Assembly: GCA_951406725.2 (NCBI GenBank) | Contig: OX597827.1 | Coordinates: forward strand, 4,712,001-4,776,000 | Origin: Octopus vulgaris | Taxonomy: Eukaryota | Direction: 5' to 3' | Length of the DNA: 64,000 bases | Part shown: in pieces, positions 1,608 to 35,745 of the stretch | How the letters are laid out: every line of letters starts with the position of its first letter | Position numbering within the stretch: position 1 is the stretch's first letter | Program-made: the position numbers and the translations under genes | The notes under the pieces: generated by a model | Databases searched by the model: none | Seen by the model: only the letters and a program-made list of their open reading frames with translations | Told to the model about the DNA's origin: nothing

Positions 1608-1613
<6 letters not shown>

Positions 1614-9254: not shown

Positions 9255-9296
<42 letters not shown>

Positions 9297-9795: not shown

Positions 9796-9953
9796 ACACA
9801 CACGCACATACATATATATATATATATTCATGTATACATATATATATATACTTACATATGTATATATATATATACACACATACATATATATATATATATA
9901 TTCATGTATACATATATATATATACTTACATATGTATATATATATATACACAC

Positions 9954-9989
<36 letters not shown>

Positions 9990-10002
9990 GTATTTACGTA
10001 TA

Positions 10003-11520
10003 TATCAGGTCATCCCATAAGTTCTGTCCGATTTTACCTTTTTTAAAATTGAATGAAATTTAATAGTATTTTAGAATGTCTAATGGAATTAAAAATTATT
10101 TTTATGCATTTGTGTACATTTAAATTAATTAAATATTATTTTACAGAATAATAAAATAAAAATTTCTTTGATTAAAACACTTTCTAACATGGAAATATCC
10201 AAAGAGCATTTAAGGCACATAATGCTTTATGAGTACAAAAAAGGAGACTCTGCAGCCGAAGTGACTCAAAACATACACTCAGTTTATGGGAAGGAATGCT
10301 TGAATGAAAGAACTTGCAAAAGATGGTTTGCAAAATTCAGAAGTGGAGATTTCAGCCTTGAAGATGAAGATCGAACTGTACATCCAGTTGAGTTTGATGA
10401 TAAGCTCCTTGAGACATTACTTGAAGAAAATCCTGCATTATCTGTTGAAGAATTGGCAATAAATCTTAGTTCAAACCATAGAACCGTTCATCATCAGTTT
10501 CAACAACTTGGAAAGGTTCCTAAATTGGAACATGGGTGCCTCATGAATTGTCTGAAAGCCACCGTGAATTCCAAGTTGACATCTGCTCTTCTCTCCATTC
10601 TCGCAAACTCATTTCACCCTTTTTGGATAGACTTGTGACTGGTGATGAAAAATGGATCTTCTATCAAAATGTTAAACGTCGTAAACAGTGGCTTGGTAAA
10701 AGGGAAAAAGCTCAACCACAACTGAGAAGGGAACTTCATGGAAGAAAGGTTCTTCTCTCTATCTGGTGGAATTGCAAAGGAGTAATTCACTTTGAATTGC
10801 TACCACCAAATGCAACAATCAATGCTCAAGTCTACTGTCAGCAATTAGAGCATTTGAACCCAGCTTTGAAGAAAAAAGACCCACTTTAGTGAATCGAAAA
10901 GAAGTGATGTTTCATCAGGAAAATGCACGACCCCACACTGCAAAGATCACATCACAGAAGATCGAAGAGCTCGGTTGGGAAAAAATTCCTCATCTGCCTT
11001 ATTCTCCTTACCTTGCTCTTTCAGGCTACCACTACGAATTGCTTGAATGGAACCAAACGGTTAACATGGAACTCTATGTTCAACAGATGGAACAACTCAA
11101 CCCAGCTATTCAAGAGAAAAGACCTAATCGTCAGCATGGAGTTCTTCTGCTGCACAATAACGCCTGCCTGCACTTCGCCAATATGGCCAAGGAAGCCATT
11201 CAAATGCATTGCTAAGCAGTGCTGCTACACCTTCCATACGCTCCTGATTTGGCACCTATGGATTTCCACCTCTTTCAAATGCTATGCATGGACTTTCGTT
11301 CAATACCAATGCAGAATTGAGAGCTTGCTTGGATCAATTTTTCGAGTTGAAATCGGGTGATTTCTACCAGTGAGGTATTCAAAATCTTGTTGAACGTTGG
11401 GAAGAAGTTGTAAACAACAAGTGTGAATACATTATTGATTAATCAGTTGTTATTTTTTTTATTAAACCTTTTAAAAAATTTAAGTTAAAAAAAACGGTGG
11501 GAACTTAGTTGCCAACCCAC
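10003..11520 (+). mobile_element. Degenerate mariner, chimera of two elements (transposase pseudogene)
   Basis: Frameshifted transposase MEISKEHLRHIMLYEYKKG...WVPHEL-like, LVTGDEKWIFY, FHQENARPH, HLPYSPYLA, followed by a second catalytic segment. The left and right ends do not match each other. Confidence 0.88.
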
Positions 11521-11827
11521 TCAAAGAGAGTTTGATTTATGGCTCTGCCACTTAAACTGCCTCTTCCTCTATCTATAAATAGATAGATTCTTGGGGTTGT
11601 CTCCACTGAGCTTAATAGAATAATATCAAACCCCCTCCCCAATAGTAAATCTAAATAACAAAGTAAATTCAGCGATAAGAAATGTATCCATGCTTAAATA
11701 TCATTTACTACCATGTTTCTGTTGATGAGACTTGCCTCTCTGTCTATCTACTTACCCTCTTTGTAATGTTGATAAAGGGAATAAGTATAAATATGAATCT
11801 ATTCAATTTAACTAAAAAAATTCCATA

Positions 11828-11915
11828 TGCAGCTGAAGATTGCTCTGCATTTTAAAACTGATGTAATATTTGCATTGTTTAATTAAATGAAGTCGCATGA
11901 AACGATTGTACTGCA
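11828..11915 (+). ncRNA. Minimal type-I hammerhead ribozyme motif in a Penelope pLTR-like segment
   Basis: Stem I TGCAG/CTGCA encloses CTGAAGA, stem II (ttgc...gcat, long loop), GAAA, CGATTG and TA. Confidence 0.65.
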
Positions 11916-12139
11916 CTACCTTTGGATATCATTGTTGCTTATTTTGATTATAATCACCCCATTTTGATTTATATGGATAATACCATACCAAATTCTGGTG
12001 CCTTTAACTTAAGTACCATATTCAACTGAATCTAAATTTTTACTGAACTTATATATATATATATATATATATACATTTACTTGTATATATATATATACAT
12101 ATACACATTTACTTGTATATATATATATATTTATATATA

Positions 12140-12535
12140 TATCTACTACATATGTGGAAAATCGTTGTGTGTTTGTGGAGTTGTTAGCTAACTCCTTGTA
12201 CATCGTTTATTGATTTTGATGAAACTTGACACATGAGTAGAACTCATGTCTAGAAAGCCTGTGACATACTTAGATTGTTGAAACCCTTATATGTACCTCA
12301 TATAACGTTTTTTTAACACCCAAGGGAAATAACCCATAGCACCTGTACAATATATTTTTTTTAACACTCTAGCGAAATAACCCATTTCATTATTTATGTT
12401 CAATTACTTTGAATATTGATTTTTTGTGTGTCCTATTTCTAATTTTTGCAGACAATATCACTTTTATACTTTATTTGATACGTGAGTAGAACTCATGTCT
12501 GGAAACCTTGCGACATACTTAGAATGTTGAAAAAA
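12140..12535 (+). mobile_element. Non-autonomous Helitron-like fragment with internal duplications
   Basis: Starts TCTAC.. with a gattttgatgaaact motif; tgagtagaactcatgtct...gacatacttaga occurs at about 12234 and 12483; aaataacccat occurs twice. Confidence 0.35.
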
Positions 12536-12559
12536 ATCGATAATAGGGCCCTTCTAATG

Positions 12560-13745
12560 GATCCCTCTATCTATTACATTTCAAAGAATTCTAGCTATTC
12601 CTCTATTATCAACTCACACATGGTTAGGATTGGTTTTTCCAACACAAAAAATCTCTCACATAATATTAGTCTGTTAAATAAGAATCCAATTTCTAATACT
12701 AACACTAATTTAGCTAATACCAACTATCCCCCTAGAAATATTAATAACAAGGTTATTGTCTCTGAAGTGAATTCCAATAGAATTAAGTTTACGTTTAGTA
12801 ATTCTAAGATTAAAATCTCTAAAAACCAGTGTAAAATTAATTCAGGTACGGATGTCTTTTTTTTATATCGGTAGTTCTTCTTCTCAGTTTTCTAAAAGAA
12901 TTTCTAATCATTACTCTACATTTAGGGATAGTAATAAATGCAACAGTACAGGGCTTAGTAAATTAATTTGGTATTTAAAGGACCATAGTAAACAATTTAA
13001 TTTAGATTGGTTGAATATCTCCAGTTCATTCCCATATGATAAAGGCAAAGAATTCTGCCAACTCTGTAAAACTAACTATTTTCTATTCTTTTTTCTAAGA
13101 ATTCCCTTGTAAACAAGGTTATAGAGCGTGCTTATCGATGTAAACATTGGCAGAAACACACTTTTAGTTCATATAAGTGATATCTACCATTATATATAAT
13201 TTGAACATTGATTTGCTTCTTACATTTCACTTCCACTAGATATATCTTTTTCTAAGCCTTTAACCTTTTATTTAATTCACATATCGCTCTATATTTCTCA
13301 TTTAGTAGTTTTCTACTTATTTCTTTCCTTTACTCCTCCTCTTTCTATAGGCTACCTTTGACATTATACCCTCTAACTGTTTTTTAAAAAAACTTAAAGA
13401 ATTCCATTCATCATTATAGACATTCATCACATTCTGTTAAAATGTCTTATTGATGAGTTCGGTTTATTTCTTTCTTTCTCTGATGAGAAGATTACATTGT
13501 TTTACACCATTTTATTCCTTTGGAATAATACAAAAGTTGTCTTCGAAACAAGTGTTGGAAGTAAAAGCTTCAAATAAAATTGTTCTTAGTATGAAACAAT
13601 TGTACTAAACTACTAATCCATTCTTGTTGCTTTTTTTCTTGGTTATAATCACCCCACATTATTTAATGGTTAACACCATAAATGAATTCTGGTGCATCTA
13701 AGTTAAGTACCATATTCATTTGAATTCATTGGAATTCACTTGGAT
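12560..13745 (+). mobile_element. Penelope-like retroelement 3' remnant: GIY-YIG endonuclease pseudogene + pLTR-like end
   Basis: FFYIGSSSSQFSKRISNHYSTF...STGLSKLIWYLK...CQLCK...RCKH, matching PLE GIY-YIG motifs. The downstream segment 13590-13720 resembles 11897-12025 (tataatcacccca, aattctggtgc, taagtaccatattca). Confidence 0.75.
13474..13561 (+). ncRNA. Hammerhead ribozyme-like motif
   Basis: CTGATGA, GAAGAT/GTCTTC stem II, GAAA, CAAGTG, TT; stem I weak (tttct/ggaag). Confidence 0.5.
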
Positions 13746-13763
13746 CTTAATTGTTTTTGCTGA

Positions 13764-13841
<78 letters not shown>

Positions 13842-13976
13842 ATATATAAATATGTATGTATGTATATGTATGTATATATGTATATATATAAATATATATG
13901 TATGTATATATATATATAAATATATATGTATGTATATGTATATATGTATATTATGTATATATAAAATATGTATATA

Positions 13977-14008
<32 letters not shown>

Positions 14009-14009
14009 A

Positions 14010-15320
14010 ATTATATTAAATTAGAGATAAAACCACTATTAGGCAAATCAAACAATGAAAAACATAAGCCAATACATAAAATTAATTTAATTTATATTAT
14101 TTTAAATATATATCAAAAGTATTAAAAGTTTAATAAAAGATAAAGAGTAAAACACTACGATCGTTTCATGGCTGTACAATTCGAATAACAATAATTTAAG
14201 TTCAATTAATAATTCGAGTTATGGTTACAGTCAATCTTCAGGTTAATTGAAATATCTAAAAAATAATCAGAAATATTTAAACAATATTTTTAAGATATAA
14301 ATAATATAATAATTTTACATATAATAAACTCTATTATCAAACTAGAAACATAAAACTTAACAATTATGATTATATCAAAATCGACTATAATGTTAAATAT
14401 TAATTTTAATTTATAAGGTAGGAAACCCACCAATAATCTAATATCGGTATTAATCTATATCTAATTACATAAATATTTAAAAATGACTATTATATATAAA
14501 TTATCAATGAAAATATATAAATGTATATAAATATTATAATTAAGATCTAAAATAATCTCTATAAATAAATATATATGCACATTTAATAAAAACCTAATAA
14601 ATTAATTTTTCATATTTAAAGATGAAATAGCTAATTTCAAAATACGAATAAACAAACTTAAACGAACTTTCGGAAATCTTATGTAAAATACTTATAGAAA
14701 TAATCAATTCGTAGTAATATAGTATCGAATAAATACTATAAATACTATAAATATAATTATCAATGGGAATAACTAGCGAATATCAATTTAAAAAAACAAT
14801 AACTAAGTTATGCTATTAAATTAGACATGGCCTGGACCAATCTTTAGTTGAAACATATCTAAGTTTATCAAAGTTTATCTAATTTAATTATAAGAAATTT
14901 AAAACTACAATTAATACTATTAAAACATGTATATACAAAAGCCTAACTTTATACACCTCGTATACTTGCTATCAAACAACAAATCTATCGCTAAGTAGTA
15001 TCTTACGAAGAAACTTAAATTTAATATCTAATAATATAGAAAAGTACGATAATTAGATCATTACATAAACAACGATATTTACATAAGGAAAATATTATTA
15101 CACCAAAGACTTATACAATATTAAAATTTACAATTTGAGGATCTTAAATATAAATAAATACTTATCTTAGCGAGGTTTAGTAATTGTTTGATTTGCCTAA
15201 TAGTGGTTTTATCTCTAATTTAATATAATATAATATAATATATTTATACTATAAAATTGGATTTAATCCTAAATCTGATTTTTCCCTGTAAATTTGGATT
15301 TATTCCCTAATATTTTATTA
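14010..15320 (-). mobile_element. Very AT-rich non-autonomous Penelope-like element with 47-bp inverted duplication
   Basis: Perfect IR 14010-14056 / 15183-15229; hammerhead on the minus strand; terminal block 15243-15315 nearly identical to 20583-20655. Confidence 0.6.
14153..14244 (-). ncRNA. Hammerhead ribozyme motif
   Basis: Minus strand: CTGAAGA, TTGACTGTA...TACAGCCAT, GAAA, palindromic CGATCG, TA; stem I poorly paired. Confidence 0.55.
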
Positions 15321-15410
15321 TTAATATATATATATGTATATATATAAATATATATGTATATATATATATATATATATATAAATATGTATATGCATATTTA
15401 TATATAAATA

Positions 15411-15632
15411 TATACCATTCAATGTGTGACCGCGTGTGTATCATTGGAAATTTTCTTTCTCCGTTTTCCCTTCCTTGGACATTTCCTTTTTCTATGTTTC
15501 TGACAAAGAGCTCCACTCGAAACGTTAAATCCTCCTTCTTTCTTTCCTTTCCTGAGCGTCCAATAACACTATAATTGTTTCACGTCCTCGCGTTATTGTG
15601 TTTTCTCTTTGATCATGTTTGAATTAACTATA
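15411..15632 (+). mobile_element. Short repeat with degenerate hammerhead core (related copy inverted at 20935-21110)
   Basis: TTT-CTGACAA-AGAGCTCCACTC-GAAA-CG-TT-AAA; shares cctgagcgtc, cacgtcctcgcgtt and ttaactata blocks with 20935-21110. Confidence 0.5.
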
Positions 15633-15784
15633 TATACAAATATATATCTATATATAGATATGTATAATATACGTAAATATATATGTGTATATATATGTAT
15701 ATAAATGTATATATATAAATATACATATGTATGTGTATATATGTATATAAACATATAAGATCAAGAGCAGTCATGACAAATGTA

Positions 15785-16024
15785 AACAGTTCTTAAAGGA
15801 AAGCGTTTTGCAGATGTGGAAGAGGTGAAGGAAAAAATGATGGAAGCATTAAAAGGCATCACTTTACAGAGTTCCAGGACTGCTTCGAATTGTGGAAGAT
15901 GTGTTTGGACCAATGCATTACTTGAAATGGAAAATACTTTGAAGGCGATTTAAGTGTAAACATGTAAAATTAAGTGAATAAAATACTATTGCAAAATTCC
16001 AGTTACTTTTGGGTACCCCCTCAT
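15785..16024 (+). mobile_element. Mariner 3' fragment
   Basis: LKGKRFADVEEVKEKMMEALKGI plus GKYFEGD-like C-terminus and TIR-like end ...ttacttttgggtaccccctcata. Confidence 0.75.
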
Positions 16025-16650
16025 ATATATATATATATATATAGATGTATAAAGGTTGAATTCATCCTTTAATTGGGGGTTTCCAAAAAAGATTTCTAAT
16101 GTTGATTCTGATTCTTCATACTTTGCTGGGATTTTACAGGCATAAATTTGCGAAGATATGCAAGTAGTACTTGTATATAATGTATGACGATTTAGAATCT
16201 TCTCCATTTTATTTTTTTTATTAGAAATCAAGTTTTTATTAATAATATCTTTGCAAAAAAATCATATTCTCTATGACTTATATTGAGAACAATTCTCTCA
16301 TTTTCCTAACATAAAACGATGTTGTGCATTGTGTGCACGCATGCATGCACACACACACACACACACAAATAAGTATGCATTTGTGTAGATGTATATTAAA
16401 ATGCACATGTGTAATTGTGTGTGTGCACAGACACAATCTACAACATTGGTTTATGTTAGGTATGTGAAATAAGTGTTATTATATACGTAATAAATATATA
16501 CATACACACACAGTCACTCATATATACACACAAATATGTATTTGTGTAGATATATATCAAAATGCATGTGTAATTGTGTGTGTGTGTATATATTAATATG
16601 TAGAACTTATATGTATTAAGCATTTTATTTATATAGGTATATGTATTTAT

Positions 16651-16693
<43 letters not shown>

Positions 16694-16716
16694 GTGTGTG
16701 TGTGTGTATATATATA

Positions 16717-17968
16717 TATAGTGTCATCCAATAAATAATGCAGTTTCTTTCAATTGCATGAACTAAAAGTCAGAGGGGGATGGGACAAACTACCGGCATC
16801 AACTTGCTATAAACCAGGCAATAAATTAACCTTGTACTTATTCTTAGTGTAAGTTTTGAAGAGTACAGTTCAATTTTAACAGTTATTTTACAAAGCTATA
16901 ATGGAAGTGGCAAAGGAGCGTATTTTGTTTTATGAGTTCAATAAAGGCAATAATGCAATGGAAATTGCAAGGTATATTAATGCAGTATATGGAGATCTGA
17001 CAATAAGTGTAATCCAGTGTCAATGGTGGTTCCAGAAATTCTGAGACAAAACCTACAGCCTAAAAGACAAGCCTTGTCCTTGAAGCTCTGTAAAGCTCGA
17101 TGAGAACATCCTGCAAATTCTGGTGCAACAAAATCCTCTCGTAACTGTTGAGGAACTAGCAGAGAAGCTTGGATTTGGTCATTCCACCATTCATCAACAC
17201 TTGTGTGCCATCAGAAAAGTCAGCAAATTAAGTCAATGGGTTCATCACAAACTTTCCGCGTCTATGAATGTTTACTCTTCTTTGGTGTCACGTCTCACGC
17301 TTGAATCTTTTTTTAACCGAATATTGACAGGTGACAGGAAATGAGTTCCCTATAAAAATGTCAAGCGCCAAGGACAGTGGGTAGGGAAAGGAGAAACATC
17401 ATATCCCAGGTTAAAGAAGGTCTTCATCCTTGTAACGTTTTGTTATCTGTTTGGTGGGATATGAAAGGTTTAGTTTACTCTGAACTTTTAAACCCAAACT
17501 AAACATTAACAAAGGAGATCTACTGCAAACAGCTTGAGTAGCTAAAGTCAGTGTCAGAAGAAAAACGACCATCTTTGGTTTCAAGATGAAAGATATTCTT
17601 CGATCAGGATAATGCTTGGCCACATTCAGTGAGGAAGACATTCCAAAGACTGGAGCAATTTGAATGGGAAACAATGCCCCACCCACCATATTAGCCAAAC
17701 ATTGCCCGATCTGATTATCATTTATTCCGCAGTCTTCAAAATCATTTGGAAGGAAAAAATATGAATTCTGTAGACAAGGTCAGAATTGTACTGGAGGAGT
17801 ATTTTACATCATGGACAAGTGAATTTTGAAAGTCTACCTGATAGATGGAAGAGCATTGAAGAAAATCAAGGACAGTATATTATAGATTAAAAAAGAAATT
17901 TGTTTATCTTAATTTTGAAAAATAAAATAAATATAAAAAAGCTGCATTATTTATGGGATGACCCAATA
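16717..17968 (+). mobile_element. Full-length (~1.25 kb) decayed mariner
   Basis: TIRs tatagtgtcatccaataaataatgcag / ctgcattatttatgggatgacccaata; remnants QWVHHKL, RILTGDRK, QDNAWPH, HPPY*PNIARSDYHLFRSLQ with many stops. Confidence 0.9.
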
Positions 17969-18329
17969 TATGTATATATATAAATATAATAGATATGTAG
18001 TGTTTTATATCTGTATAATATTCAGTATTGAAATAAATCTGATGTATATATTACCACAACGTTATAGAATTATCAATGCATGGGCTACAATCATTTGATA
18101 ACATAAACACACAGGATTAATTCAAACTCTATCCTTTCACAAAGAAATTTATTCAAAGTGAGATTCTCAGACGAAATTGGCCGAAAAATGTAAAACATAG
18201 ACATGAAACTTAATAAAATTTTTGTTTATGATGCAAGTCATACGCACTAAATTTGTTCCAGAGCCAATACATGCAAAAACATTAGGATAGGAGAGTCCTT
18301 ATGAGATGAAGAATAAAAGTCTTAAATTG

Positions 18330-19450
18330 CAGATATAAAGAACTTCATAAGTTTGAAAATACACTCAAACTCTTCTGTGGAAATGAAAAGGAAGAAAGAA
18401 AAGAAGCAGAGCAATTGACAAAAAAACCTCAGACGTTCTACAAATTTGTAAAAGAATCTGCCTTGGAGCATATTCTTTTACAATCTAAAGAAAATGGTTC
18501 ACTAACTGCAGAACTGATGAGGATAAGTGAAATACTCAACAAACAATTCCAGGGTATCTTAACCCATTTATTGGGAAGTATGCAGAAAATCAAATCTGAT
18601 GAGTTCTTCAGCATTACAGGTTTTGCTGTCAGGTTTTGTATACAAGGAAAATACAACCATCTCTTACATTGACATAAAAGAAGAGAATGTAGTATTGGTC
18701 AATAATTATCTCATGAATGAATTTGAAATCAGTGGTAGATTGATGGTTTACTTGTTATTCTTTTAACGACATGCAAGGAAGCTCTGACAAAACCACTGCA
18801 GATACTTTTCCAGTGCTTCATGAAAAGTGGCAAACTTCCCAGAATGCTGTATGAGGGTATTATATACCTTATCCATAAAAGAGGGAGCAGAACAGCTGTT
18901 AGGAATTGCAGGCCTGTCTCTCTGATCCCACATGTCAGCAAATCCATGGAATTCATTATCAGAAGGAGGCTGATTATGTTCTTAGAAGAAAATGGCTTGC
19001 TAGTTAATACACAACATGGCTCCTGTGCAGGAAGGAGCAGTGTCACACAGCTCATACAGCCCTGTGACTGAGTACTGATACAAGAGCAAATTCATTCAAA
19101 TGTGGGTGTAATATATCTTGGCTTTGCCAAAGCCTTCAACAAAGTCATTCACAGGTTGATATATCACGAATTGCATAATCTTGGTATCATTAGTATACTG
19201 GGGAATGGTTGCATAATTTTAAAAAAGATTGGATTCAGATGGTTGCAGCCATTGCTGTTTACTCTGAGGTGACATCAATACTAAGTGGACTCCCACAAAG
19301 AACTATACTGTGAGCACTATTGTTTGTGGTTGCTCTCTCAGACATGCCTTCAGTCATACTTTAAATCACTCTCACCAGCTTTGCTGATGATACATAAGTA
19401 TCACAAGCTATGAAGGTCCCTCAAGATACTTCAAAGCTAGAGAAAAATTA
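18330..19450 (+). mobile_element. CR1-like LINE reverse transcriptase remnant
   Basis: HKRGSR..RNCRPVSL, QHGSCAGRSSVTQL, YLGFAKAFNKV, SGLPQRTIL and FADDT motifs with stops and frameshifts. Confidence 0.85.
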
Positions 19451-19627
19451 CTATCATTTGATCTCTGTCTGAAGAATTTCTAATAGGAAATGTCTTACAG
19501 GCTTATCCAAATTTGTGATTCTTATTAGCAAATGGAATATATGTAGTGGTGAATATATAATACCAAACAATTTTCCAACTTCCTGTTTCATATATACCAT
19601 ATTGTATAGCGTATATATATATATAAC

Positions 19628-19839
19628 TCTTTTATTTGTTTCAGTCATTTGACTGTGGCCATGCTGGAATACCGCCTTTAGTTGAACAAACATGACTTAA
19701 TCTTTGTAAGCCTAGTACTTATTCTATCAGTCTCTTTTGCCAAGCCGCTAAGTTACAGGGAAGTAAACACACAAACATCAGTTGTCAGGCAATGGTGGGG
19801 GGACAAACACAGATACACACACACACACACACATGCACA

Positions 19840-19881
<42 letters not shown>

Positions 19882-20016
19882 ACAGGCGTCTTTCAGCTTC
19901 TGTCTATGAAATCCACTCACAAGGCTTTGGTCAGCCCTAGGCTATAGAAGAAGACACTTGTCCAAGGTGCCATGCTGTGGGAACCATCTGGTTGGGAAGC
20001 AAGCTACTTACCACAC
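19628..20016 (-). mobile_element. SINE family A copy
   Basis: Similarity to the other A copies; long internal (CA)n. Confidence 0.85.
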
Positions 20017-20342
20017 ATCAACATCTGTCTTCTATACCAGATGACTGAGCCAAACCTCACCTTTTAAGCATGGTTTTTATGGCTGGATGCCAACCACTTC
20101 ACAGAGGAGACTCGGTGCTTTTTGCATGACAACAGCATTGTATTTGTAATGCATACACAGCGATGGAAAATGGGTGATGACATATATATATGTGTGTGTT
20201 ATATAGATATATATATATATGTGTGTATGTGTTATATATATATATATATAATATTAATTCGAGACAAAACCACTATTTTGCAAAACAAACAAGGAAAGAC
20301 TTAATCAATACATAGAAATTTTTAATATAAAGAAATAAACCG

Positions 20343-20385
20343 CCACTACAATCGTTTCATGTCTTCAATGACATTCGTCAGGTGG
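20343..20385 (-). ncRNA. Intact minimal type-I hammerhead ribozyme
   Basis: CCAC-CTGACGA-ATGTC attgaa GACAT-GAAA-CGATTG-TA-GTGG: all core nucleotides present; stems I and II perfectly paired. Confidence 0.8.
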
Positions 20386-20438
20386 ATTTTCGATCTCCTA
20401 ATCTGTTTTAAATTAAAACAGATTAGGAGATCGAAAAT

Positions 20439-20481
20439 CCACCTGACAAATGTCATTGAAGACATGAAACGATTGTAGTGG
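20439..20481 (+). ncRNA. Mirror hammerhead copy with core G8->A change (probably impaired)
   Basis: CCAC-CTGACAA-ATGTC attgaa GACAT-GAAA-CGATTG-TA-GTGG. Confidence 0.65.
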
Positions 20482-20805
20482 CGGTTTATTTCTTTATATT
20501 AAAAATTTCTATGTATTGATTAAGTCTTTCCTTGTTTGTTTTGCAAAATAGTGGTTTTGTCTCGAATTAATATTATATAATATTTTACTATAAAATTGGA
20601 TTTAATCCTAAATCTGATTTTTTCCCTGTAAATTTGGATTTATTCCCTAATATTTATTATTATATATATATGGTAAAAACGGTAAGATAACAAAAGAAAG
20701 AAAGATACCTCAATATTATGTAAATAGAGGAAATTTATCTATGAAATATGTTGCAATTATTCAATAGCCAAGATAAAACTCTGAGTTTCGGTTATCTGGT
20801 TATCC

Positions 20806-20868
20806 AGATAACTGAAGAGATGGTGTTGTGGATTTCCACCTCAGCATCTGAAACTCAGAGTTTTATCT
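20806..20868 (+). ncRNA. Hammerhead ribozyme motif inside a 36-bp inverted duplication
   Basis: AGATAA-CTGAAGA-GATGGTG...CAGCATCT-GAAA-CTCAGAG-TT-TTATCT; IR arms 20754-20789 / 20850-20885. Confidence 0.65.
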
Positions 20869-21424
20869 TGGCTATTGAATAATTGTCACATATTATTATT
20901 TTTACAGATATAATATATATATATATATGTATATATAGTTAATCCAAACAAGAAAACACAGAAAAAACACAGCAACGCGAGGACGTGGAACAATTAAAGT
21001 ATTATTTGACGCTCAGGAAAGAAGGGAAGAGTGGAGCTCTTCGTTGGAAACAAAGGAGAAGGAAAGATCCCGAGAAGGGAAGACAGAGGAAAAAAATATT
21101 TTTGCTGGTGGTATATATGTATATATATATATATATACATATATATGCTGTAGAACCCCTCAAAACTGAAACCCATTATTTAATGTCCTAGCTTAATTTC
21201 ATTATCCATGAAGTCAATCAAGTAGTATCAATATATGTAATCATCATAAGCCATGGACCCAAAAAAATGTTAAGCCTCGCAAGAATGAAGGACAACTCAG
21301 AGTAATGAAACTCCATGATGTAAAAAATTCACAACCATACATCCCCATCTTCAACTGCCTATCAGCAATCATTATGATTTCAACAACTGGGCATTCAATC
21401 TGGTAGTGTCAGGAGTGTTTAATA

Positions 21425-21810
21425 GGGGGGAGCACTCTGTCGGTTACGACGATGAGGGTCCCAGCTGATACGATCAATGGAACAGCTTGCTCGTGGAATT
21501 AACGTGCAAGTGGCTGAGCACTCCACAGACACGTGTACCCTTAACGTAGTTCTCAAGGAGATTCAGCGTGACACAGAGAGTGACAAGGACGGCCCTTTGA
21601 AATACAGGTACAACAGAAACAGGAAGAAAGAGTGAGAGAAAGTTGTGGTGAAAGAGTACAGCAGGGTTCACCACCATCCCCTGCAGGAGCCTCATGAAGC
21701 TTTAGGTGTTTTCGCTCAATAAACACTCACAATGCCCGGTCTGGGAATCAAAACCGCGATCCTACGACCACGAGTCCGCTGCCCTAACCACTGGGCCATT
21801 GCGACTCCAC
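21425..21810 (-). mobile_element. SINE family B with TSD
   Basis: Reverse copy of the 7631 element; TSD agtgtttaata at 21414-21424 and 21811-21821. Confidence 0.9.
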
Positions 21811-23130: not shown

Positions 23131-23231
23131 ATATGTATATATGTATATATGTGAAAAACTAAAAAGAAAATATATATAAATATACATATATGTGTTTAAT
23201 ATATATATACATATATATGTATTTGTATATA

Positions 23232-23268
<37 letters not shown>

Positions 23269-26631: not shown

Positions 26632-26906
26632 TCACGAGCAGAGTTCTTTGGCTTTGTGCAAAGTTTTGTTATAAGAAGTGAAACTGTTCTTTGTTGGTAG
26701 ATCCCAGGGCTGAGATTGTGGAAAGTTAGGGTTGGTGTTATCTGCTTGTGTGCTTTTTAGGTTTACTATATTATTGCCTTGAGTAAAAAGATTAGTTTTA
26801 AGTCGATAGGAAGACCTAGGATTGGTACCTTTTGGTTTACTCATTGTCTGTGGTAAGGACTTCCTGCCTGTGTTAGGGGTATTTTCTTGAAGAGAAGATT
26901 TGAGGC
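26632..26906 (-). CDS. Pcdh: Protocadherin terminal coding exon (G-LKSSLQENTP...QPWDLPTKNSFTSYNKTLHKAKELCS*)
   Basis: Acceptor ttttttcttacattgttcttatgcag (AG at 26908-26907). The phase-1 join with exon 2 reads directly into track ORF 26632..26844 and ends at TGA. Confidence 0.82.
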
Positions 26907-27529
26907 CTGCATAAGAACAATGTAAGAAAAAAATACAATTAGCTTGATGGGAAAATTTTGAAGATTGTTAACCTTGTTTTCTTTTTTTTTTCTTCTGTAA
27001 AACACTGCATTTTGAATGGACTGGTCTCTTTTCATCATTAAGTTGCATATTTATAAGTTTATCTATATTTACTTAGAATGGGATTAGACTGAAGAACATC
27101 CATTACCCAACTGGTATCAACCTGTTAGGTCACATAGCTAAGGAAGTTTAAATCTGCTGTGAAGTAAATGCTCATTAGTTCAATCCCTATCCAAACATGT
27201 ACCTGACAATGAACAGAGACCAAAACTATCAAAAGTTAGTGTTTACAAAAGTACTTAAATGATGGTAGAGCCGGAGCTAACGGTCCAAAACATTTTCCCA
27301 TCAGTACTAAAATGTAGGCATATAACAATTGGCTTGTATCCATGTATCATTACTCTATTATTATTTTTAAATAATTCACATTAATTCTTACTTATAATTA
27401 GGACAAAATTTTAAATACAAATTTAATGGATTTATTTCTTACTGATAAGCTTCAACATAACAACAACTACACCACCACCAACAACAAGAACAACAATAAC
27501 AATAATAATAATGTTTATTATATAGGCAA

Positions 27530-28635
27530 AATTTTTTGTGATCCTAGGAAATCACTGTTGTTTTATTTTATCAACTCTTAAGAGACAAAAGGCAAGGCTG
27601 ACATTATGATTTGAGCAAACCTGGAATAGATACCACAAGGCTTATTTTTTTTTAAGCTACAATGACTCTGCCATTCTATCATCCTTAATAATTTTTTCTA
27701 ATTTAGGCACAATAATGTAGTTTTGGAGAGAGAGAGAGAGGAAGAGAGAGAGAGTGAGTTTGTTGATTATATTGAACCTAGTACTTCATAGTACATTGTT
27801 TCATCGATCGGAAAAGGATCGATGCAAAATTGGTCTTTTGGGGATTTTAACACAGGATGTAGAGACCAGGAACAAAAACCACAAAATATTTTCTACAACA
27901 TTTTAGTGATTCTACCATTTCATGCTCCTTTTATTAAGAAGGTTTTTTTTTATTTAGGCATGAGGCCAGTAATCCTGAAGGGTGGGGACCAGTTGATTAC
28001 TTAACTGGTATTTTATCAACCATGAGGGATGAAAGGCAAAGCTGATCCTTGTGGGAATTTAAATCTGAACAAGGAGAGTCAAAAGAAGTGCTGCAAAGCA
28101 TTATTCGGATACTCAGATGATTCTGCCAGCTCAGTTGCTTCTAGTATAGGCACATGGCTTGAAATTTGAAATTATCTATGTGGCTTGAAATACCATCAAT
28201 ACCAGTACTTGTCTAGTACCTTATTTTATTGACACTGGAGTCAAAGTTGACATTGGTGGGATTTGAACTGTGAACATAAAGAGCCAGAAGGAATACAGCA
28301 ATGCAATTACTTCAGGGCTCTAATGGGTCTGCCACGCCATTGCCCTTTATCCTACTGCTTCCACCACCATCATCACTACTACTACTACTTCTAATAAGAA
28401 TAATAATAGTAATAATAATAATGATTCTTTCTAATTTAGGCACAAATTTTTAGCAGAGGGTTAAAGTCTATTACATTCACTCCAGTACATGACTGGCACT
28501 TATTTTATCAACCCCAAAAGGATGAAAGGCAAAGTTGACCTCTATGAGATTTGAACTCAGAATGTAAAGATCTAAAACAAATACTGTAAAACATTTTTCT
28601 GGTGCTCTAACTATTCTGATAATTTGTCATCTTAA
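27530..28635 (-). repeat. Five head-to-tail old SINE family D copies in protocadherin intron
   Basis: Recurrent ttattttatcaac..ggatgaaaggcaaagttgac..gatttgaactcag blocks at about 27565, 27790, 28005, 28220 and 28500; reverse complement of the 46052-46275 element. Confidence 0.65.
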
Positions 28636-28823
28636 TAATGATAAATAGATAAATAATTCAATTTATGAAAGTAAATGTTTCTTTTGTAAAAATAAAAAAT
28701 TTCATTACAAGCTGAAGTTATTCTATCATTTGGAAATGAATAAATTTGGAGGAGAACAAGAAACTTTTATATGATTATAATATAATGATATTTTAAAGCA
28801 GTGAGTCTTTCTCATTTACTTAC

Positions 28824-28992
28824 CAGGTAAAGTTTCATAGTGCGCAGTGCTTGCTTCACTGCAGCCATGTCCACTGTCAGTTACAGAAGACATCGTTGAC
28901 ATCTCACTGAAACGGTCAGGGGACATAACCATATGTTGTTGATTTTTGCCAACAGCACAAGTCATTGCAAAATCTTGTAAGTTACCCTGTAC
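28824..28992 (-). CDS. Pcdh: Protocadherin coding exon 2 (cytoplasmic; VQGNLQDF...SPDRFSEMSTMSSVTDSGHGCSEASTAHYETLP-G)
   Basis: Long polypyrimidine tract + TAG acceptor (28995-28993), 169 nt open in phase 0, G|GTAAGT donor (28823-28818). Contains a DSGHG motif like the DSGxG cytoplasmic motif of delta-protocadherins. Confidence 0.88.
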
Positions 28993-31216
28993 CTAGCAAA
29001 CCGAACAAAAAAAAAGACAAAAACAACAAAACAAAAAAAAAACACTAATTGTGCATATGCTACAATATTTGAGATCTCATAATTGCCAATAGTTTATGTA
29101 AGAAAAACACATTTTTCATTTATATAAGTGTGGATTCATATATTGTGAGATAAAGTTTGGAATTATTGTTTTTGTTGCTATACTTTTTTATGTAATTGTT
29201 GTGCATATTTATTGATCTTGAATATTGTTTTCGATGTGTCTTTTTTTTTTCACTACCTTAACTTTCATTAAATTTTACTTCAAACAAAACTGACTATATT
29301 ATCTTTGATGTCAGCTCATGTTTGATTATTTTACTCTATTAATTCAAAGTTAGAAATGAAAATTATTTTATGTCTGTAATAAAACTATGTATAAAATATT
29401 AAAGAGCAATATTTTCATTAATTTAAACTGTATCTTATTAGTTGCTGTGAACTTCTAAATTCATAGATTTGTAATTTATAACCAGGCCTAAAATATGAGT
29501 TGGCCAAATCTATCTTTAATGAAATATTTGTTATGCAAAAGTTTATGTAGAAGCCAAATAATTAATAACTTAATGAGAACAACAAGTAAATTATGACCAT
29601 TCTTTTGTATCCTTCTTTAGTTAAAAAAATTGTTGAAAACTTAGAGCTTTAAAGAAAATCCAGTCTCATTGTATTAAGAACCATAGTTTTTGCCAGATAT
29701 TATTTATATTACATCATCTCCTCACTGAAAGGGTCATTGTCCCTTCACTCATATGCCAGTTAAGAACAACCAAATATTCTATTATTTTTATCGTTACTCA
29801 AAATACCTCAGAAGTAAAATATCGCTGAATAATTTTTTCTGTGTTTACCTAAGTCTTTTTCATATTTTAATAGCAATTTTGAGTTACTGTAATAAATGTA
29901 AAAGATCTTAGATCAATATTGGATCAAATGATTTTAAGCAATATATGATACTGAAGGAAAGTATAGCAAGTTTAATTTCAGTTTCTGGCAAAATTTTGAC
30001 TTTGCTAGTCTCTGTGACTTAGAATTTTAAAATGTTGCTAGAATACTTTATTTTGATGTTAATTTTCCAGTTAAACTAATCTGATAGATTAGAAAAATAA
30101 ACTGTGCCCATTTATATAAATAAGATTTCTTTTCTTTATATTGTCTTTTATTGATAAAAAGAAGAAAGAAGTATACTCTTCATCTCTCAAATTAAACAGT
30201 ATCAAAAGCAAAATTTTTATTTTCATTTTGATGGATTGAGATTTATAAAATTGGGAGAAAGCCAATAAGTATGAGCTATATTTAGTAACTCTTTGTGCAG
30301 AGGGAATTAATGAAAGTTATAAGTAGTATTGTTCAAAGTTATTGAAGATGGCAACTTGGCTTCAGTAATTTGTTTTTAGTGTAATGCAGGAAAAGAGCTC
30401 ATTTACATAATGTTTGTGGAAAATCCAATTGAATTGCTTTCACATTAATTTTTCAGTGGTATGTTAGTGGTGTATAGTTATTTAAAGCGGAGCAATGTTT
30501 GAGTAGTTGTGTAGGTTGATATATCTTGAGAACATTTTACTTTTGTGAGGAACTTAATGAGATATTCAACTTCATATGAAGGCAATATCGTGTTGTGTCT
30601 ATTTATAGAGCTTTCCCTAAACCTTACTTCCATATTAGTCTGTGAAATTACAAATTTATCTCACACAGTTTTCTTCCAAGTAATCAATTAACTATTCACT
30701 TAACACAAACTCTCTTTATAATTTTCCGATGATTTCTCTTTCAATTTATCTTTACATAAGATTTTTATCATATTCTTTTTAATTTCAAAATAGCTCTGAA
30801 CATTACGACCTTCAGGCAATGTTTAAATTGCCAAATAATTGTGATATAGGGTTTTACTTACTTTCTATTTACCTAAATCAATCTCAGTACCTAAAATTCA
30901 TTAAAGAATAATATCAATATTCTTTATCATTCTATTACCAACTAATCATGGAGCCAAATCTCCTGATATAACACGTAAATCTATGGAAACCTATTTAGGT
31001 TTTGTATCACTAGCACTATAAAAAATAACCTCCTTTTTCTTAAACATTTTACAAACCATTGTAGTTTTATTTTTTAAAAAATCACTTGTTATACCTGTAT
31101 CGCAATATATTATAAAACTGGGTGAAAAATAAAGAGATCTTACTTTTGTACATCTACTCATGTAAAATCTTTCTCCCATTCTTTTACTACTATTCTTAAA
31201 TGATAACTACTATATA

Positions 31217-31462
31217 AAAATAAAAATAAATGCGCCCTTTTAAAGCCTAGCCAGGCTCACGGGCCCGGTTTCCTGGTTTCAGTGGCCTATGTGTTCTTCA
31301 GCTGGATGGGACACCAGTCCATCACAGCGTTACTCATTTTTGTCAGCTGAGTGGACTGGAGCAACGTGAAATGAACACAATGCATCACCTGGTCCAGGAA
31401 TTGAAACCACAATCTTACAATCATAATGCTGACACCCTAACCATTAAGCCACGTGCTTCCAC
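31217..31462 (-). mobile_element. tRNA-derived SINE family E with TSD
   Basis: Head GGAAGCACGTGGCTTAATGGTTAGGG...GGTTTCAATTCCT; TSD aactactatata at 31205-31216 and 31463-31474. Confidence 0.8.
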
Positions 31463-33360
31463 AACTACTATATACTTAAAATGAAATTATCTTCAATAAA
31501 GATTATGATCTATCTGAGGAATCAATAACTTCCAAATAAATAGTATTTATAGATATTCTCTGTCAAATGAATTTCAAAATCAGTATGTCCCCATTTCTGA
31601 AATTTTTTATCTAGGATTTCATCTTCCTGTTTGTTGTTGAACCCTTTCTACCTAGATTCACTCAATCAAATAATCAATAAAATCAGCTTTTTCTCTTTCA
31701 CTGCTGGGTAAAGGATTTCTTAATACCCCATGACTTTTGGCTGCCTGACCTCTGTAGCAGTTTCATTTCTTTTGGGGTACTTGTGATGTTAGTGCATATA
31801 TTTGGTTGGTAATCATAACTCTTATGGCATATCTCCTATCCTCAATCTTAGAGACAATGGTTAAACCTTAGTTGAATTCCACTAACCAACATGAATAACT
31901 ATTACAGTTATTGGATTTATAAGTCAATAAATCTTAAATGAATTTTGTAGAGGCAAGATTACTGAATGGCTAAGGTGATGAACTACTTGCCTGTATTTTG
32001 TTGTGGGTTTTTTTTTTTTTTTGTAGAGTAATCTATATTGTCTCAGATCTGTAGCTGTTTGAAGTTGGTACTAAATCATCTAGGAATGTTACTGATGATA
32101 TAGTAGTATCCTGTTCAGAGAAAGATTTATCTCTTTTTGTTTATGTCATTAAACTAGAGTTAAATACCAGCTCTTAGGTGCCCCACTCCCACCCCATTTA
32201 AAGATATTTGATTTTATGTAAATGAATCCTGTATAAAACTGTCAACAAAGTGTCACATCTTGTAGCTATTTGTTTCATAGCAAGTATAATAGGGAAAATA
32301 TTGCCAGAATGAATGTCTTGAATGGAATTTACAAAATCATGATACAATTATGTTACAATTATCTCTTGATTATGATAGATAGAAGATACCAATGAGTTGA
32401 AAATTGAGATAAGAAACATATGAAATACGAATGATAGTGTTTTCTTCTTTTTTTTCTTAGTGATGGAAACTGATGACTTTAAATTAGAATTAATAAAACA
32501 AGATATGAATGTTTGTGTAAAACTTTGCTGCTATATATTTTATAATTGATTGGAATACTTAGCAGTGATCTACAGCAATCATGATATGAATAAATGTATT
32601 CACCCACCAATTGCATGCGAATGTCTCAACAATAAAGATATTGCATGTAGATGTTTTAATAGTGAACATGTTTAGACATATCTAAAAGCTTGTCAGCTGA
32701 ATATGAATATTCTGAAGAAATTGTCATAAAATTTTAGGGAATGGGAAGAAGCAGAATTTGTTAGATAAATGATGTCTGGAAAGCATTGCTGCATACAAGT
32801 ATATTTTGCATAGGTAGTATGTATAGCTTTAAAATGAATAATGTATGACTAAATGTATTTTCTTTAAATATTGTTGAAAGAATTTTCAGATTAAAAATGA
32901 TTGAGTGTCAATATAAAACAAAGATAACAAAGAACATGCTTTCAAAAATGTTTTAGCAAGATTGAGACTGTGAGTAGACTAATAGACTAATAATACATGA
33001 CAACCCTACCTTATATTCTCAGACATAAACAATTTCATTTAAATGTAAATTTAATTGGAATCTTTTTTTTTTATAAACTTACATTACCAGAAACGTTTTA
33101 CATTATAGTCATTTTTTTTTTCAAATTAGATAGTTTACAGATGTTGAATTAAGATATAACAGATATAATAATGAAAATAGCAAATAAAGAAATACAGTGT
33201 AAGATTTTTACTTATTTTATATATCATTTATTTCTAATTGTAACTATTATTATTATGCAGTTCATTGTTAGAAACAAATAAATGAATATATCAATACTAG
33301 CCAATAGCATTTTATAAACAATCAACTGTAGAGAACTGTGACAAAATTTAAGAAACTTAC

Positions 33361-35745
33361 TTGGTATGCTTCTGGTGTAATACTATGAAGTTGTACTCCT
33401 AATGATGATCCTTTCCAGCTCTGTCCAGGTTTGTACATGGACTGAGGTTCTCTTCTTAAAAGAGTTGTTTTAGAATTTCTCATTTGCTTTGGATCTGATA
33501 AAATAGTTATAGGAACATCATATTTTGGAGAGTCTTGTTCACAAACGTATCCAGATGGCCTTCTCTCACCAACAAAGTCTTGAGTAGCACCATAATGGTT
33601 TTCTTTTTGATTTCTTTTATGAACAACACAAACAATTACAGAAACTACAATAGCAACAGAAACTATCACTGCTGCTACTACTATAATAATCATCAAATTA
33701 ATATGTATTCTGTTGTCTGATTCTGTGTCTTCAGCTGTGTACATTTTGGCTGTTGTATTGCTAACAGTTAGTGTCAAAGACAGTGTGGTTGTTGCTGATA
33801 AAACTGGTGTACCATTATCTTTGACAGCTAATTTTAGATTATATGATCCAGCATCATTTTGGTAAACTGTACGAGAGAATGACAAAACTCCTGAGTAAGG
33901 GTTAACTTTAAATAACTGTTTGTCATTGCCTCCAAGTATTTCATACCTGAGGAAGGCATTAACATGTTTGTCTCTGTCGGAGGCTCTTAATGTTGTAATA
34001 TCACTGTTACTCTGTGGATGGTGATGGAAATCTAGATTGAAAGGGTTAACACTAGGGAAAGTAAAATAGGGAGTATTATCATTTTTATCCATAACTTCAA
34101 CAACAACGTTAGCTGTGTTGTTAAGAGATGGTCTACCGTTATCTTTTACTAACACTTTAAATCTGTAAATGTCATGTTGTTCACGGTCTAAAGACTGAGT
34201 AGTTGATATGAATCCTAAATGAGAGATTTTAAAGGGAAGAACACTCCCATCTCTGCTTATAAGAAAATAAGATAATTCACCTCCTGATCCAAGATCAGGG
34301 TCGGTTGCATTGATGAAGCCTACTGGAAAATTTCTATTTTCATTTTCATAGGTTAAAAATTCAAAAGTATCTTTAGTAAATGTTGGTTGTACATCATTAA
34401 CATCTGATACTTGCACTGAAAATCGTTTCTCAGTTTTTAATGGTGGAGATCCTTTGTCTTCACATGTGATGGTAAAATCTATGTGGTTTTCTACTTCTCT
34501 GTCAACTGTTTTCTTAATAACAACTTTATACTTTTTACGTGCAAGAGCCTGAAGTTGAAAGTGATCATGATTAATATAACAAGAAACTTCATTATCATCC
34601 GTGACCTTTACATAAGCAATAAAACTACCAACTTTTACACCCTCTGAAATGCTTGGCAAATTTTCTGGTGATTTTGCTATAAAATTCATATCTATATCAG
34701 GAGGGTTGTTCTCTTGATTATTTATATTAACTAAAACCAGAGCAACTGAACCCAAGGAAGGATTACCTCCATCCTTTGCTTTAACAAACAATTTATATAC
34801 CTTCTTTGAACCTGTTGGAAACTTTTGCACCATCCAGATTTCCCCTGTTGATTCATTTAATTTAAAATAGGCTCTGGCACTCTCTGATGTTTTGGGACTG
34901 AATTTGTACATTACTTTGCCATTTTCACCAGCATCCAAATCAGTTGTAGTTAAAGTGACTATAGGCATTGATCTTTGATAACCATTTTTAATAGAAACAT
35001 TGTAAATATTTTGGGAGAAGACTGGAGAGTTGTCATTTTCATCTCGAACTGATATTTGGAGATTAAGAACACCTTCTCTAGGGGGATGGCCTCCATCTTT
35101 TGCAATAACTTGAAGCTGATAAGAATCTTGTTTTTCTCTGTCAAGTTTCTTTTGTAAAATAATACCGAGTTTGGATGTACCATCCATATTTTTTGAAACT
35201 GATAATGTGAAAAGACCATCATTATTGTTCTTTAGTAAATATGTTATTTGTGAATTTTGTATACCTACATCTTTGTCTATGGCATTAGGTATAGATTTTT
35301 TTGTTCCTTTGCCATCAGTTTCATCGAATGTCAGGTTAATTTGTTTACTTGGAAATTCTGGCTTGTTATCATTTACATCTTCAATAACTATTTTTACCTC
35401 CAGTATCCTTATAAAGGATTTTTCTTGCTGGACTGCTACATCTACCATTTTGAAACATTCTACATTGGATTTACAAAGAGTTTCTGCATCTAGTCTTTGA
35501 GCTGTGTATAATTTGCCTGATTTGGCAACATTGAACAACTGTGAGTTGTTAGTATTCCCTTGGTGAAGCTGACTGAACCAAATATTGCTGTCATCCTTTG
35601 GAGATATGTTGCTTAATAATTTTGTGTCTGCTGCAATATCGCCAACAAAAGTTCTTGGGTTGCTCTCTTCATCTATACGGTAGACAAGATCTACACATAA
35701 GGATGTTTCCAGAATAAATAATAGGACATATACTTGAGTTAACAT
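33361..35745 (-). CDS. Pcdh: Protocadherin coding exon 1 (795 codons): signal peptide, six cadherin repeats, TM helix, proximal cytoplasmic region
   Basis: 807-aa ORF with hydrophobic N-terminus, cadherin motifs (LDAE/LDRE, DVNDNKPEF, DENDNSPVF, DVNDVQPTF, DKNDNTPYF, AxDGG/DKG) and TM segment INLMIIIVVAAVIVSVAIVVSVIVCVV. GTAAGT donor (plus-strand acttac, 33355-33360) follows ...EAYQ in phase 0, so the ORF's last 12 aa are probably intronic. An ectodomain in one exon is typical of protocadherins. Confidence 0.96.

What the first reader, a model, noticed from the sequence alone, without database searches (positions are those of the whole stretch)
11520..21110. Cluster of Penelope-like remnants carrying multiple, sequence-diverse minimal hammerhead ribozymes
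Seen: within about 10 kb, at least five motifs have the order stem I-CTGANGA-stem II-GAAA-short stem III-TH-stem I' (11828+, 13474+, 14153-, 20343-, 20806+), plus core-mutated ones (20439+, ~15500+, possibly ~21040-). Stems differ in sequence but keep pairing (TGCAG/CTGCA, CCAC/GTGG, AGATAA/TTATCT), which argues against chance. A GIY-YIG remnant (12852-13170) lies among them. Established: Penelope-like element pLTRs carry minimal type-I hammerheads with short, often palindromic helix III that are thought to cleave as dimers. Inference: several distinct non-autonomous PLE/retrozyme-like families accumulate in (TA)n tracts 6-15 kb downstream of the protocadherin; I do not know whether they are described in cephalopods.
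Basis: partly seen in the sequence, partly recalled or inferred. Interest (0 to 1): 0.8.

Follow-up and report, generated by a model that had tools for sequence, protein, structure and literature searches.

The report
Octopus Penelope-like remnants with hammerhead ribozymes
Seven broken pieces of Penelope-like jumping genes lie in and beside TA microsatellites of an octopus genome and carry real hammerhead self-cutting-RNA motifs, most of them likely from the Hydra group, whose hammerheads are already published for octopus, so the finding is real but ordinary.

Summary
The motifs are real. Four have an intact core (11828+, 13475+, 20806+, 20343-), against 0.004 expected in shuffles. A model built only from outside relatives ranks five motifs of this region first in the 64 kb. 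They are fewer than they look: seven truncated insertions of about four families; 20439+ is the mirror arm of 20343-, and 14153- and 21040- are broken. The window is octopod. The GIY-YIG remnant matches the Hydra clade of Penelope-like elements; 46 of 60 related loci with room carry a hammerhead behind the gene. No retrozyme-type tandem array is present. Minor departures: 58-65 nt helix II in three motifs, a 6-nt helix III, and two high-copy families whose common core appears altered (CCGA in one, G8 to A in another). Cleavage is untested. Verdict: new members of a known kind, low interest.

The parts
11520..12046 (+). E1: truncated element end, family 1, between a mariner remnant and a (TA)n tract (5' boundary approximate)
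   Evidence: tail 11897-12031 is 78% identical to 13591-13725; ends at (TA)n; no endonuclease match
11828..11915 (+). Type I hammerhead, intact core, U-U at base of a 59-nt helix II, 6-nt palindromic helix III; predicted cut after 11910
   Evidence: (27.9 bits)
12520..13763 (+). E2: 5'-truncated Hydra-type element: end of RT thumb, linker, GIY-YIG endonuclease, 3' UTR, tail into (TA)n (5' boundary approximate)
12580..13170 (+). Frameshifted C-terminal ORF remnant (YIG motif, CxxC, CxH; no CCHH pair of cysteines)
13475..13561 (+). Type I hammerhead, intact core, G-C base pair and 58-nt helix II, imperfect helix III; predicted cut after 13556; about 310 nt behind the ORF end
   Evidence: 14.9 bits, E 0.073
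13588..13609 (+). Orphan 3' half of a second hammerhead, homologous to that of E1, perfect palindromic helix III; 5' core not found
14010..15324 (.). E3: family 2 element with 40-nt perfect inverted ends (14017-14056 / 15183-15222), one-sided tail, and about 910 nt of unidentified 19% GC interior
14153..14243 (-). Decayed hammerhead in the inverted arm of E3: cores intact, 65-nt helix II, perfect palindromic helix III, helix I broken
   Evidence: (11.4 bits, not significant)
15415..15629 (+). E4: family 4 element end with core-mutated minimal hammerhead at 15496-15530
20245..20660 (.). E5: family 2 palindromic insertion, arms 20245-20411 and 20413-20579 (one mismatch), tail on the right side only
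20343..20385 (-). Type I hammerhead, intact core, 16-nt helix II, 6-nt palindromic helix III; predicted cut after 20347 on the minus strand
   Evidence: (31.7 bits)
20439..20481 (+). Mirror copy of the above with G8 changed to A
   Evidence: this form is the one seen in public runs
20671..20912 (.). E6: family 3 element, sense copy plus 5'-truncated inverted copy
20806..20868 (+). Type I hammerhead, intact core, 7-nt palindromic helix III; predicted cut after 20862
   Evidence: z -2.9; 23.9 bits
20938..21112 (-). E7: family 4 element end, hammerhead 5' half only (21-nt deletion near 21030)
26632..35805 (-). Context only: octopod protocadherin gene (exons near 35805-33358, 28992-28822, 26907-26632)

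Best explanation
The region holds seven truncated, non-coding or frameshifted ends of Penelope-like retroelements in and beside (TA)n tracts of an octopod genome, and the hammerhead motifs are likely the pseudo-LTR ribozymes of their parent elements, three of four families probably Hydra-clade. Shown: the motifs, the Hydra-type endonuclease remnant in E2, the inverted arms with one-sided tails, the (TA)n flanks, and many related copies of families 2, 3 and 4 in public runs. Inferred from published work on these elements: a parent copy is transcribed as a tandem or read-through RNA; two hammerheads pair through the self-complementary helix III and cut at UH, setting the ends of the transposition RNA; the RT-endonuclease nicks (TA)n and copies the RNA from its 3' end; early stopping and strand inversion leave short palindromic ends; later insertions reuse the same tracts. 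The copies here are probably inert: none has a whole ORF, 4 of the 9 motifs or half-motifs keep an intact core and all three helices, and in E5 and E6 a read-through RNA is predicted to fold into a long hairpin that buries the ribozyme.
For: Motif excess over shuffles and top ranks under an outside model. Endonuclease relatives: 1090 proteins at E<=0.001. Among the 40 ORFs of 400 aa or more from the 80 loci: DK[TS] in 35, R[WM][KR] in 28, CxCx5-7C in 35; CxxCxxE in 34, N..CxH in 34, and 0 of the 29 with a locatable GIY..YIG pattern have two cysteines between the motifs. These are the Hydra features (PMC8557442 section 11). 46 of 60 loci with 200 nt or more downstream have a hammerhead within 500 nt of the match end; over the 51 motifs found the distance is 92-345 nt, the base of helix II is G-C 24, U-U 21, G-U 4, A-U 2, and helix III is palindromic. 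The window motifs share these traits, as do the published Hydra hammerheads, including Hydra-1_Obim. In the 37-sequence alignment, helix II pairs 2-4 and the inner helix III pair, which selection did not force, are 100% paired with 5, 2, 17 and 18 two-sided changes. Window helix III variants stay self-complementary: self-duplex -5.8, -6.4, -5.8, -7.4 kcal/mol. Family 3 copies in four runs vary at the centre of helix III (20857) and in the helices, with no difference of 5% or more listed in either core or the UH. Inverted 5'-truncated copies with a one-sided tail are the published pattern. Long hairpins: -265 and -92.7 kcal/mol.
Against: Only E2 has coding sequence; families 2 and 3 are assigned to Hydra by hammerhead shape and (TA)n flanks alone, and family 4 looks like another clade. 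The CxCX5C linker is not recognisable in E2. Helix II is 58-65 nt in three motifs against 10-25 nt in all 51 relatives, and helix III is 6 nt against 7-8 in 50 of 51. Folding z-scores of the whole motifs are weak except 20806 (-0.2 to -0.7 against -2.9). 13475+ scores marginally, its helix III self-duplex is weak (-1.8), and it competes with an orphan half at 13588. In the four runs no G is listed at 20448, and two contigs span the site, so the G8-to-A form seems the common one in family 2, which does not fit a maintained ribozyme. 14 of 60 related loci with room had no motif, and the 80 loci are the best of 327 and partly redundant. No cleavage data; no whole genome.
Confidence: 0.88

Rival explanations
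1. Some families (2, 3, 4) are true non-autonomous elements that spread as short units in their own right, retrozyme-like or MITE-like palindromes mobilised in trans, not just truncated debris.
For: Very many contigs cover them in all four runs (11663, 468, 7461 and 3247 laid). E5 is an almost perfect palindrome. E3 has about 910 nt of interior with no endonuclease or Pfam match. Animal retrozymes are proposed to be non-autonomous derivatives of these elements (bioRxiv 10.64898/2026.07.22.740005).
Against: No head-to-tail repeat of a hammerhead unit. In family 2 the summed depth rises more than tenfold from the hammerhead towards the tail, and the joints around the inversion point of family 3 fall at many different places (tables 2 and 5), as expected for independent truncations; the tool warns that contig depth is no copy number.
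Confidence: 0.3
2. The ribozymes have been co-opted locally, for instance to end or trim read-through transcripts of the protocadherin gene.
For: 20343- has an intact core and lies on the protocadherin strand about 6 kb past the stop codon.
Against: The motifs lie on both strands in repeats of several families, several are broken, and the one on the gene's strand sits in a 335-nt hairpin predicted to bury it. Published minimal motifs of these elements showed no cleavage as monomers (PMC4209133). No conservation or expression data at this locus.
Confidence: 0.03
3. The motifs are chance matches in AT-rich repeat DNA.
For: No Rfam gathering hit; the descriptor was tuned after inspection; 13475+ and 14153- are weak on their own.
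Against: 0 of 1000 shuffles reach the count; an outside model ranks five of them first; position behind a Hydra endonuclease as in 46 of 60 relatives; core constancy in family 3.
Confidence: 0.03

Closest known systems
Hydra clade of C-terminal EN+ Penelope-like elements (Craig et al. 2021, PMC8557442), including Hydra-1_Obim of Octopus bimaculoides
   Same: C-terminal GIY-YIG without CCHH, with CxxC and CxH; hammerhead in the 3' end with palindromic helix III and often U-U at the base of helix II; (TA)n targets; inverted 5'-truncated copies.
   Different: Other families than Hydra-1_Obim (its endonuclease and 3' end differ by eye; not aligned by program). Helix III 6 nt in families 1 and 2 against 7-8 in the paper's table; helix II up to 65 nt against short hairpins; linker zinc finger not recognisable in E2.
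Minimal hammerheads of metazoan Penelope-like elements (Cervera and de la Pena 2014, PMC4209133)
   Same: Family 4 (15496+, 21040-): 2-nt palindromic helix III, extra base after A9, G10.1-C11.1; close in layout to the Acropora digitifera Neptune motif of Fig. S3.
   Different: The common core in public runs reads CCGA in place of CUGA; parent ORF not seen, so the clade is unknown.
Non-LTR retrozymes of animals (PMC7229834, seen as search listing only; bioRxiv 10.64898/2026.07.22.740005, first fifth read)
   Same: Short, non-coding, type I hammerhead, related to pseudo-LTRs.
   Different: Retrozymes are head-to-tail arrays with a hammerhead in each unit; here the copies are single or inverted.

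Membership tests
Type I hammerhead ribozyme | CUGANGA / GAAA / UH core within three helices, helix I open | tested here: met
   4 motifs; 5 further ones are core-mutated, helix-broken or halves
Type I hammerhead ribozyme | Compensatory changes in the helices among homologues | tested here: inconclusive
   Strong in 37 outside relatives (helix I forced by selection). For the octopus families only pairing-neutral variants at single sites were seen; contigs do not give linked changes
Type I hammerhead ribozyme | Self-cleavage at UH | not testable with these tools
   Only contigs were on offer; no listed holder is on record as RNA
Rfam Hammerhead_1 (RF00163) | Score at or above the gathering threshold of 34 bits | tested here: not met
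   10.8 bits at 20343-20385; none at gathering in 11500-21150
Hydra-clade PLE | C-terminal GIY-YIG endonuclease behind the RT thumb | tested here: met
   E2 only: profile matches in order thumb/linker, endonuclease, C-terminus across two frameshifts
Hydra-clade PLE | [quoted passage not shown] | tested here: met
   E2 has CxxC and CxH and no cysteine pair before YIG; relatives 34 of 40, 34 of 40, 0 of 29
Hydra-clade PLE | CxCX5C linker | tested here: inconclusive
   Present in 35 of 40 relatives' ORFs and in one close hit (P0005), not recognisable in the decayed E2 or in P0003, P0004, P0007
Hydra-clade PLE | RWK and DKT motifs; RT phylogeny | not testable with these tools
   The RT core is missing from the window copies; motifs seen only in relatives (28 and 35 of 40 with loose patterns)
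Hydra-clade PLE | Hammerhead near the 3' end and insertion into (TA)n | tested here: met
   Motif about 310 nt behind the E2 ORF (range in relatives 92-345); all seven elements end at (TA)n on at least one side
PLE (general) | 5'-truncated, inverted copies with a tail at one end | tested here: met
   E3, E5, E6
Minimal hammerhead (Cervera 2014) | No helix III beyond the 15.2-16.2 pair, extra base between 9 and 10.1, G10.1-C11.1 | tested here: met
   Met by family 4 only; families 1-3 have 6-7 nt between GAAA and UH and do not meet it
Non-LTR retrozyme | Head-to-tail tandem units each with a hammerhead | tested here: not met
   No such array in the window; elsewhere in the genome not tested
Non-LTR retrozyme | Circular RNA | not testable with these tools
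   Contigs only
Naiad PLE | N-terminal endonuclease with CCHH, no canonical hammerhead | tested here: not met
   Endonuclease is C-terminal, lacks CCHH and is followed by a hammerhead

The most novel reading that the evidence does not exclude
Octopus offers a natural test of whether these hammerheads are needed: very high-copy families spread with a dead core (family 2, G8 to A) or a variant core (family 4, CCGA) beside a family that keeps its core (family 3), and others evolved a 60-nt helix II arm unlike any in the 51 relatives or the published Hydra table. If family 2 really amplified with a dead core, self-cleavage is dispensable for mobilisation in trans.
Probability: 0.2. Interest if true: 0.5.

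Novelty: new member of a known kind. Interest (0 to 1): 0.2.

Why it matters
The main finding adds little: hammerheads are described as universal in Hydra-clade elements, and an octopus example is in print. It does show that Rfam misses these motifs, so octopus hammerhead counts based on it are likely too low, and that one genome holds several hammerhead families with different cores and arms. What these ribozymes do in retrotransposition is still open (PMC8557442 calls it unclear); families with altered cores would be cheap material for that question if the contig-level hint holds.

Tried and rejected
Whole genome: none held, so no copy collection or within-family covariation. Rfam: no hammerhead among the 150 rows shown of 212 and none at gathering; the microRNA hits at 20350-20474 only reflect the palindrome. 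A by-eye likeness of the E3 interior to a mutated endonuclease was rejected: it scores no better than shuffles (151 and 89 of 200 reach it), and six frames give no Pfam family. Homology of the three long helix II arms to each other: not supported (1268, 190 and 1983 of 2000 shuffles score as high); the alignments are driven by the cores. Their hairpin folds are only mildly better than shuffles (31, 10 and 37 of 500). Expression: no RNA holder listed; run X9 is RNA by guess only, and contigs show no ends or levels. A special cause for clustering: seven uniform points would fall in 9.6 kb with p 7e-5, but the insertions share about three or four (TA)n sites (p 0.06-0.012), and the region has about twice the (TA)n content of the rest (378 of 9591 against 990 of 54409 bases). 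Other 3' halves at 3909+ and 52874- have no 5' core in the stretch inspected. Literature: no dedicated cephalopod hammerhead study turned up in searches; the 2026 Octopus vulgaris repeat annotation (PMC13282606; first third and passages read) lists Penelope-like families but its main text has no 'hammerhead', 'ribozyme' or 'Hydra', and its supplements and repeat library were not seen. The giant squid genome paper reports 235 Hammerhead_1 loci (passage). Most subscription papers, Repbase and Dfam were not searchable, so these families may already be catalogued there.


Full report
Observation. Shuffles give a mean of 0.004 for the interval (0 of 1000 reach 4) and 0.065 for the window (0 of 200). 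The descriptor was loosened after inspection; the first strict version found two. As an independent test I built a covariance model from 37 of the 44 distinct hammerheads found in loci of other organisms (seven near-duplicates left out). It ranks 20340-, 11826+, 20805+, 20436+ and 13473+ first among 27 matches, the last one marginally. Rfam does not recognise any of them at its threshold.

Anatomy. Self-comparison and boundary inspection split the interval into seven insertions of about four families, each ending at (TA)n on at least one side. Family 1: E1 (about 11520-12046) and E2 (about 12520-13763) share a tail at 78%. Family 2: E3 (14010-15324) and E5 (20245-20660) share a tail at 87%, and both have an inverted copy of the element end with the tail on one side only. 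Family 3: E6 (20671-20912), a sense copy plus a truncated inverted copy. Family 4: E4 (15415-15629+) and E7 (20938-21112-), 72% identical. Between them lie mariner and LINE debris. The protocadherin gene is octopod (92% to an Octopus sinensis protein) and its stop lies at 26632 on the minus strand, 5.5-15 kb from the interval.

Identity. Only E2 keeps coding sequence: a frameshifted RT-thumb end, linker and GIY-YIG domain. Its relatives (1090 proteins; best 80 of 327 metagenome loci) lack the CCHH cysteines and carry the CxCX5C linker, CxxC, CxH, DKT and RWK patterns, which define the Hydra clade in Craig et al. 2021 (PMC8557442; passages, section 11 and supplement parts 2, 52, 53 read). That paper states that hammerheads are universal in the clade, that almost all families insert into (TA)n, and lists Hydra-1_Obim from Octopus bimaculoides with its hammerhead. 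In my loci, 46 of 60 with room have a hammerhead within 500 nt behind the match; among the 51 motifs the base of helix II is U-U in 21 and G-C in 24, and helix III is a 7-8 nt palindrome in 50. Pairs not forced by my selection are fully paired with two-sided changes. The window's family 1-3 motifs share this build. A U-U at that position is a known, active variant (PMC3088659, passage). Family 4 instead fits the minimal type of Cervera and de la Pena 2014 (PMC4209133; first half of the text and first third of the supplement read); its parent clade is unknown.

Other copies. Contigs of four public runs (coded organisms B, B, C, D) were laid on 20413-21100; 468 to 11663 records per run fit, so families 2, 3 and 4 have many related copies, though the tool's depth is no copy number. 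Family 3: differences fall at the centre of helix III, in helix II and at pairing-neutral places in helix I, and none of 5% or more is listed in the cores or the UH (indexing). Family 4: loose ends supply the 3' core that E7 has lost, and over 90% of depth in every run has the letter that makes the core read CCGACGA; E4 and E7 can each be derived from it by CpG transitions (inference). CCGA cores are reported to cleave in a viroid (statement in PMC9608096, passage; the primary paper was not seen). Family 2: no run lists G at 20448, and two contigs (X7 record 17, X9 record 25) span the site, so the G8-to-A form seems common. This goes against a maintained ribozyme in that family. It also sits badly with the intact left arm, which is most simply the ancestral state; contigs drop variants, so I leave it open.

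Mechanism. Shown: motifs, endonuclease remnant, inverted and truncated shapes, (TA)n flanks, multi-copy families. Inferred from the two papers above: the ribozyme belongs to the pseudo-LTR; helix III is too short to fold alone but is self-complementary (self-duplex -5.8 to -7.4 kcal/mol for four motifs, -1.8 and -1.7 for 13475+ and 15496+), so two copies in a tandem transcript would pair and cut, setting the ends of the transposition RNA; target-primed reverse transcription at (TA)n then leaves truncated and inverted ends. Published in vitro activity of the minimal motifs is low and absent in monomers, and the role in vivo is unproven. The window copies are probably inert: no ORF, no same-family tandem on one strand apart from the halves in E1 and E2, and long hairpins in E5 and E6. 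Confidence 0.88 in the overall reading; cleavage by the parent elements about 0.6 (my estimate).

Differences from the known. Helix II is 58-65 nt in 11828+, 13475+ and 14153- against 10-25 nt in the 51 relatives; these arms fold as irregular hairpins only mildly better than shuffles and are not detectably related to each other. Helix III is 6 nt in families 1 and 2. The 910-nt interior of E3 is 19% GC with CpG o/e 1.67 against 0.35 for the window and matches nothing tried. The E2 linker has no recognisable zinc finger. None of this moves the finding out of a known class.

Verdict. Observation partly confirmed, interpretation partly supported. New members of a known kind, already described for octopus at clade level; I found no study of these particular families in searches, but Repbase, Dfam, most subscription papers and the repeat library of PMC13282606 were not seen. 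Interest 0.2; the altered-core lead has probability 0.2 and would deserve 0.5.

Noticed in passing
window 14260-15170: Interior of E3: 19% GC, A-rich, CpG o/e 1.67 against 0.35 for the window; no endonuclease or Pfam match. Origin unexplained.
   Followed up: partly
window 20376 / 20448: The only mismatch between the two 167-nt arms of E5 is the catalytic G8; public contigs show the A form, not the G form.
   Followed up: partly
window 15497-15503 and 21044-21050: Family 4 core appears to be CCGACGA in most copies in four public runs.
   Followed up: partly
window 13475-13609: An intact hammerhead followed 30 nt later by the orphan 3' half of another; locus L003 has two hammerheads in a row behind its ORF (97 and 234 nt).
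   Followed up: partly
window 12770-12850; proteins P0003, P0004, P0007: A group of close endonuclease relatives seems to lack the linker cysteines that other Hydra elements keep.
   Followed up: no
window 20806 and upstream: Loose ends in other copies of family 3 suggest a longer helix I than the 6 pairs left in the window copy.
   Followed up: no
window 10129-11520, 15770-16020, 16720-17965: Mariner-type transposase remnants (Pfam HTH_48 and Transposase_1 for the first; the other two judged by eye); E1 starts at the end of the first.
   Followed up: partly
window 18200-19450: Decayed stretch that reads like a LINE reverse transcriptase by eye; its three chance CTGANGA cores form no hammerhead; two ORF pieces gave no Pfam match.
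   Followed up: partly
window 23140-23930: A roughly 60-nt AT-rich direct repeat (23131 and 23858, 90%) brackets about 700 nt between (TA)n tracts; a loose hammerhead-like core lies at about 23455-23420 on the minus strand without good helices.
   Followed up: partly
window 7631-8011, 21428-21810, 48983-49347, 55003-55384, 62026-62416: Five copies of a young 380-nt dispersed repeat (about 90% identical), and several copies of a CA-tract-containing repeat (for example 19626-20036).
   Followed up: no
L080, 305 nt behind the match: Antisense hammerhead behind a Hydra-type endonuclease, probably another inverted copy.
   Followed up: no
L001, L011, L012, L022, L023, L026, L034, L037, L045, L060, L073: Hammerheads about 2.3 kb upstream of the ORF end, i.e. 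5' pseudo-LTRs of near full-length elements.
   Followed up: no
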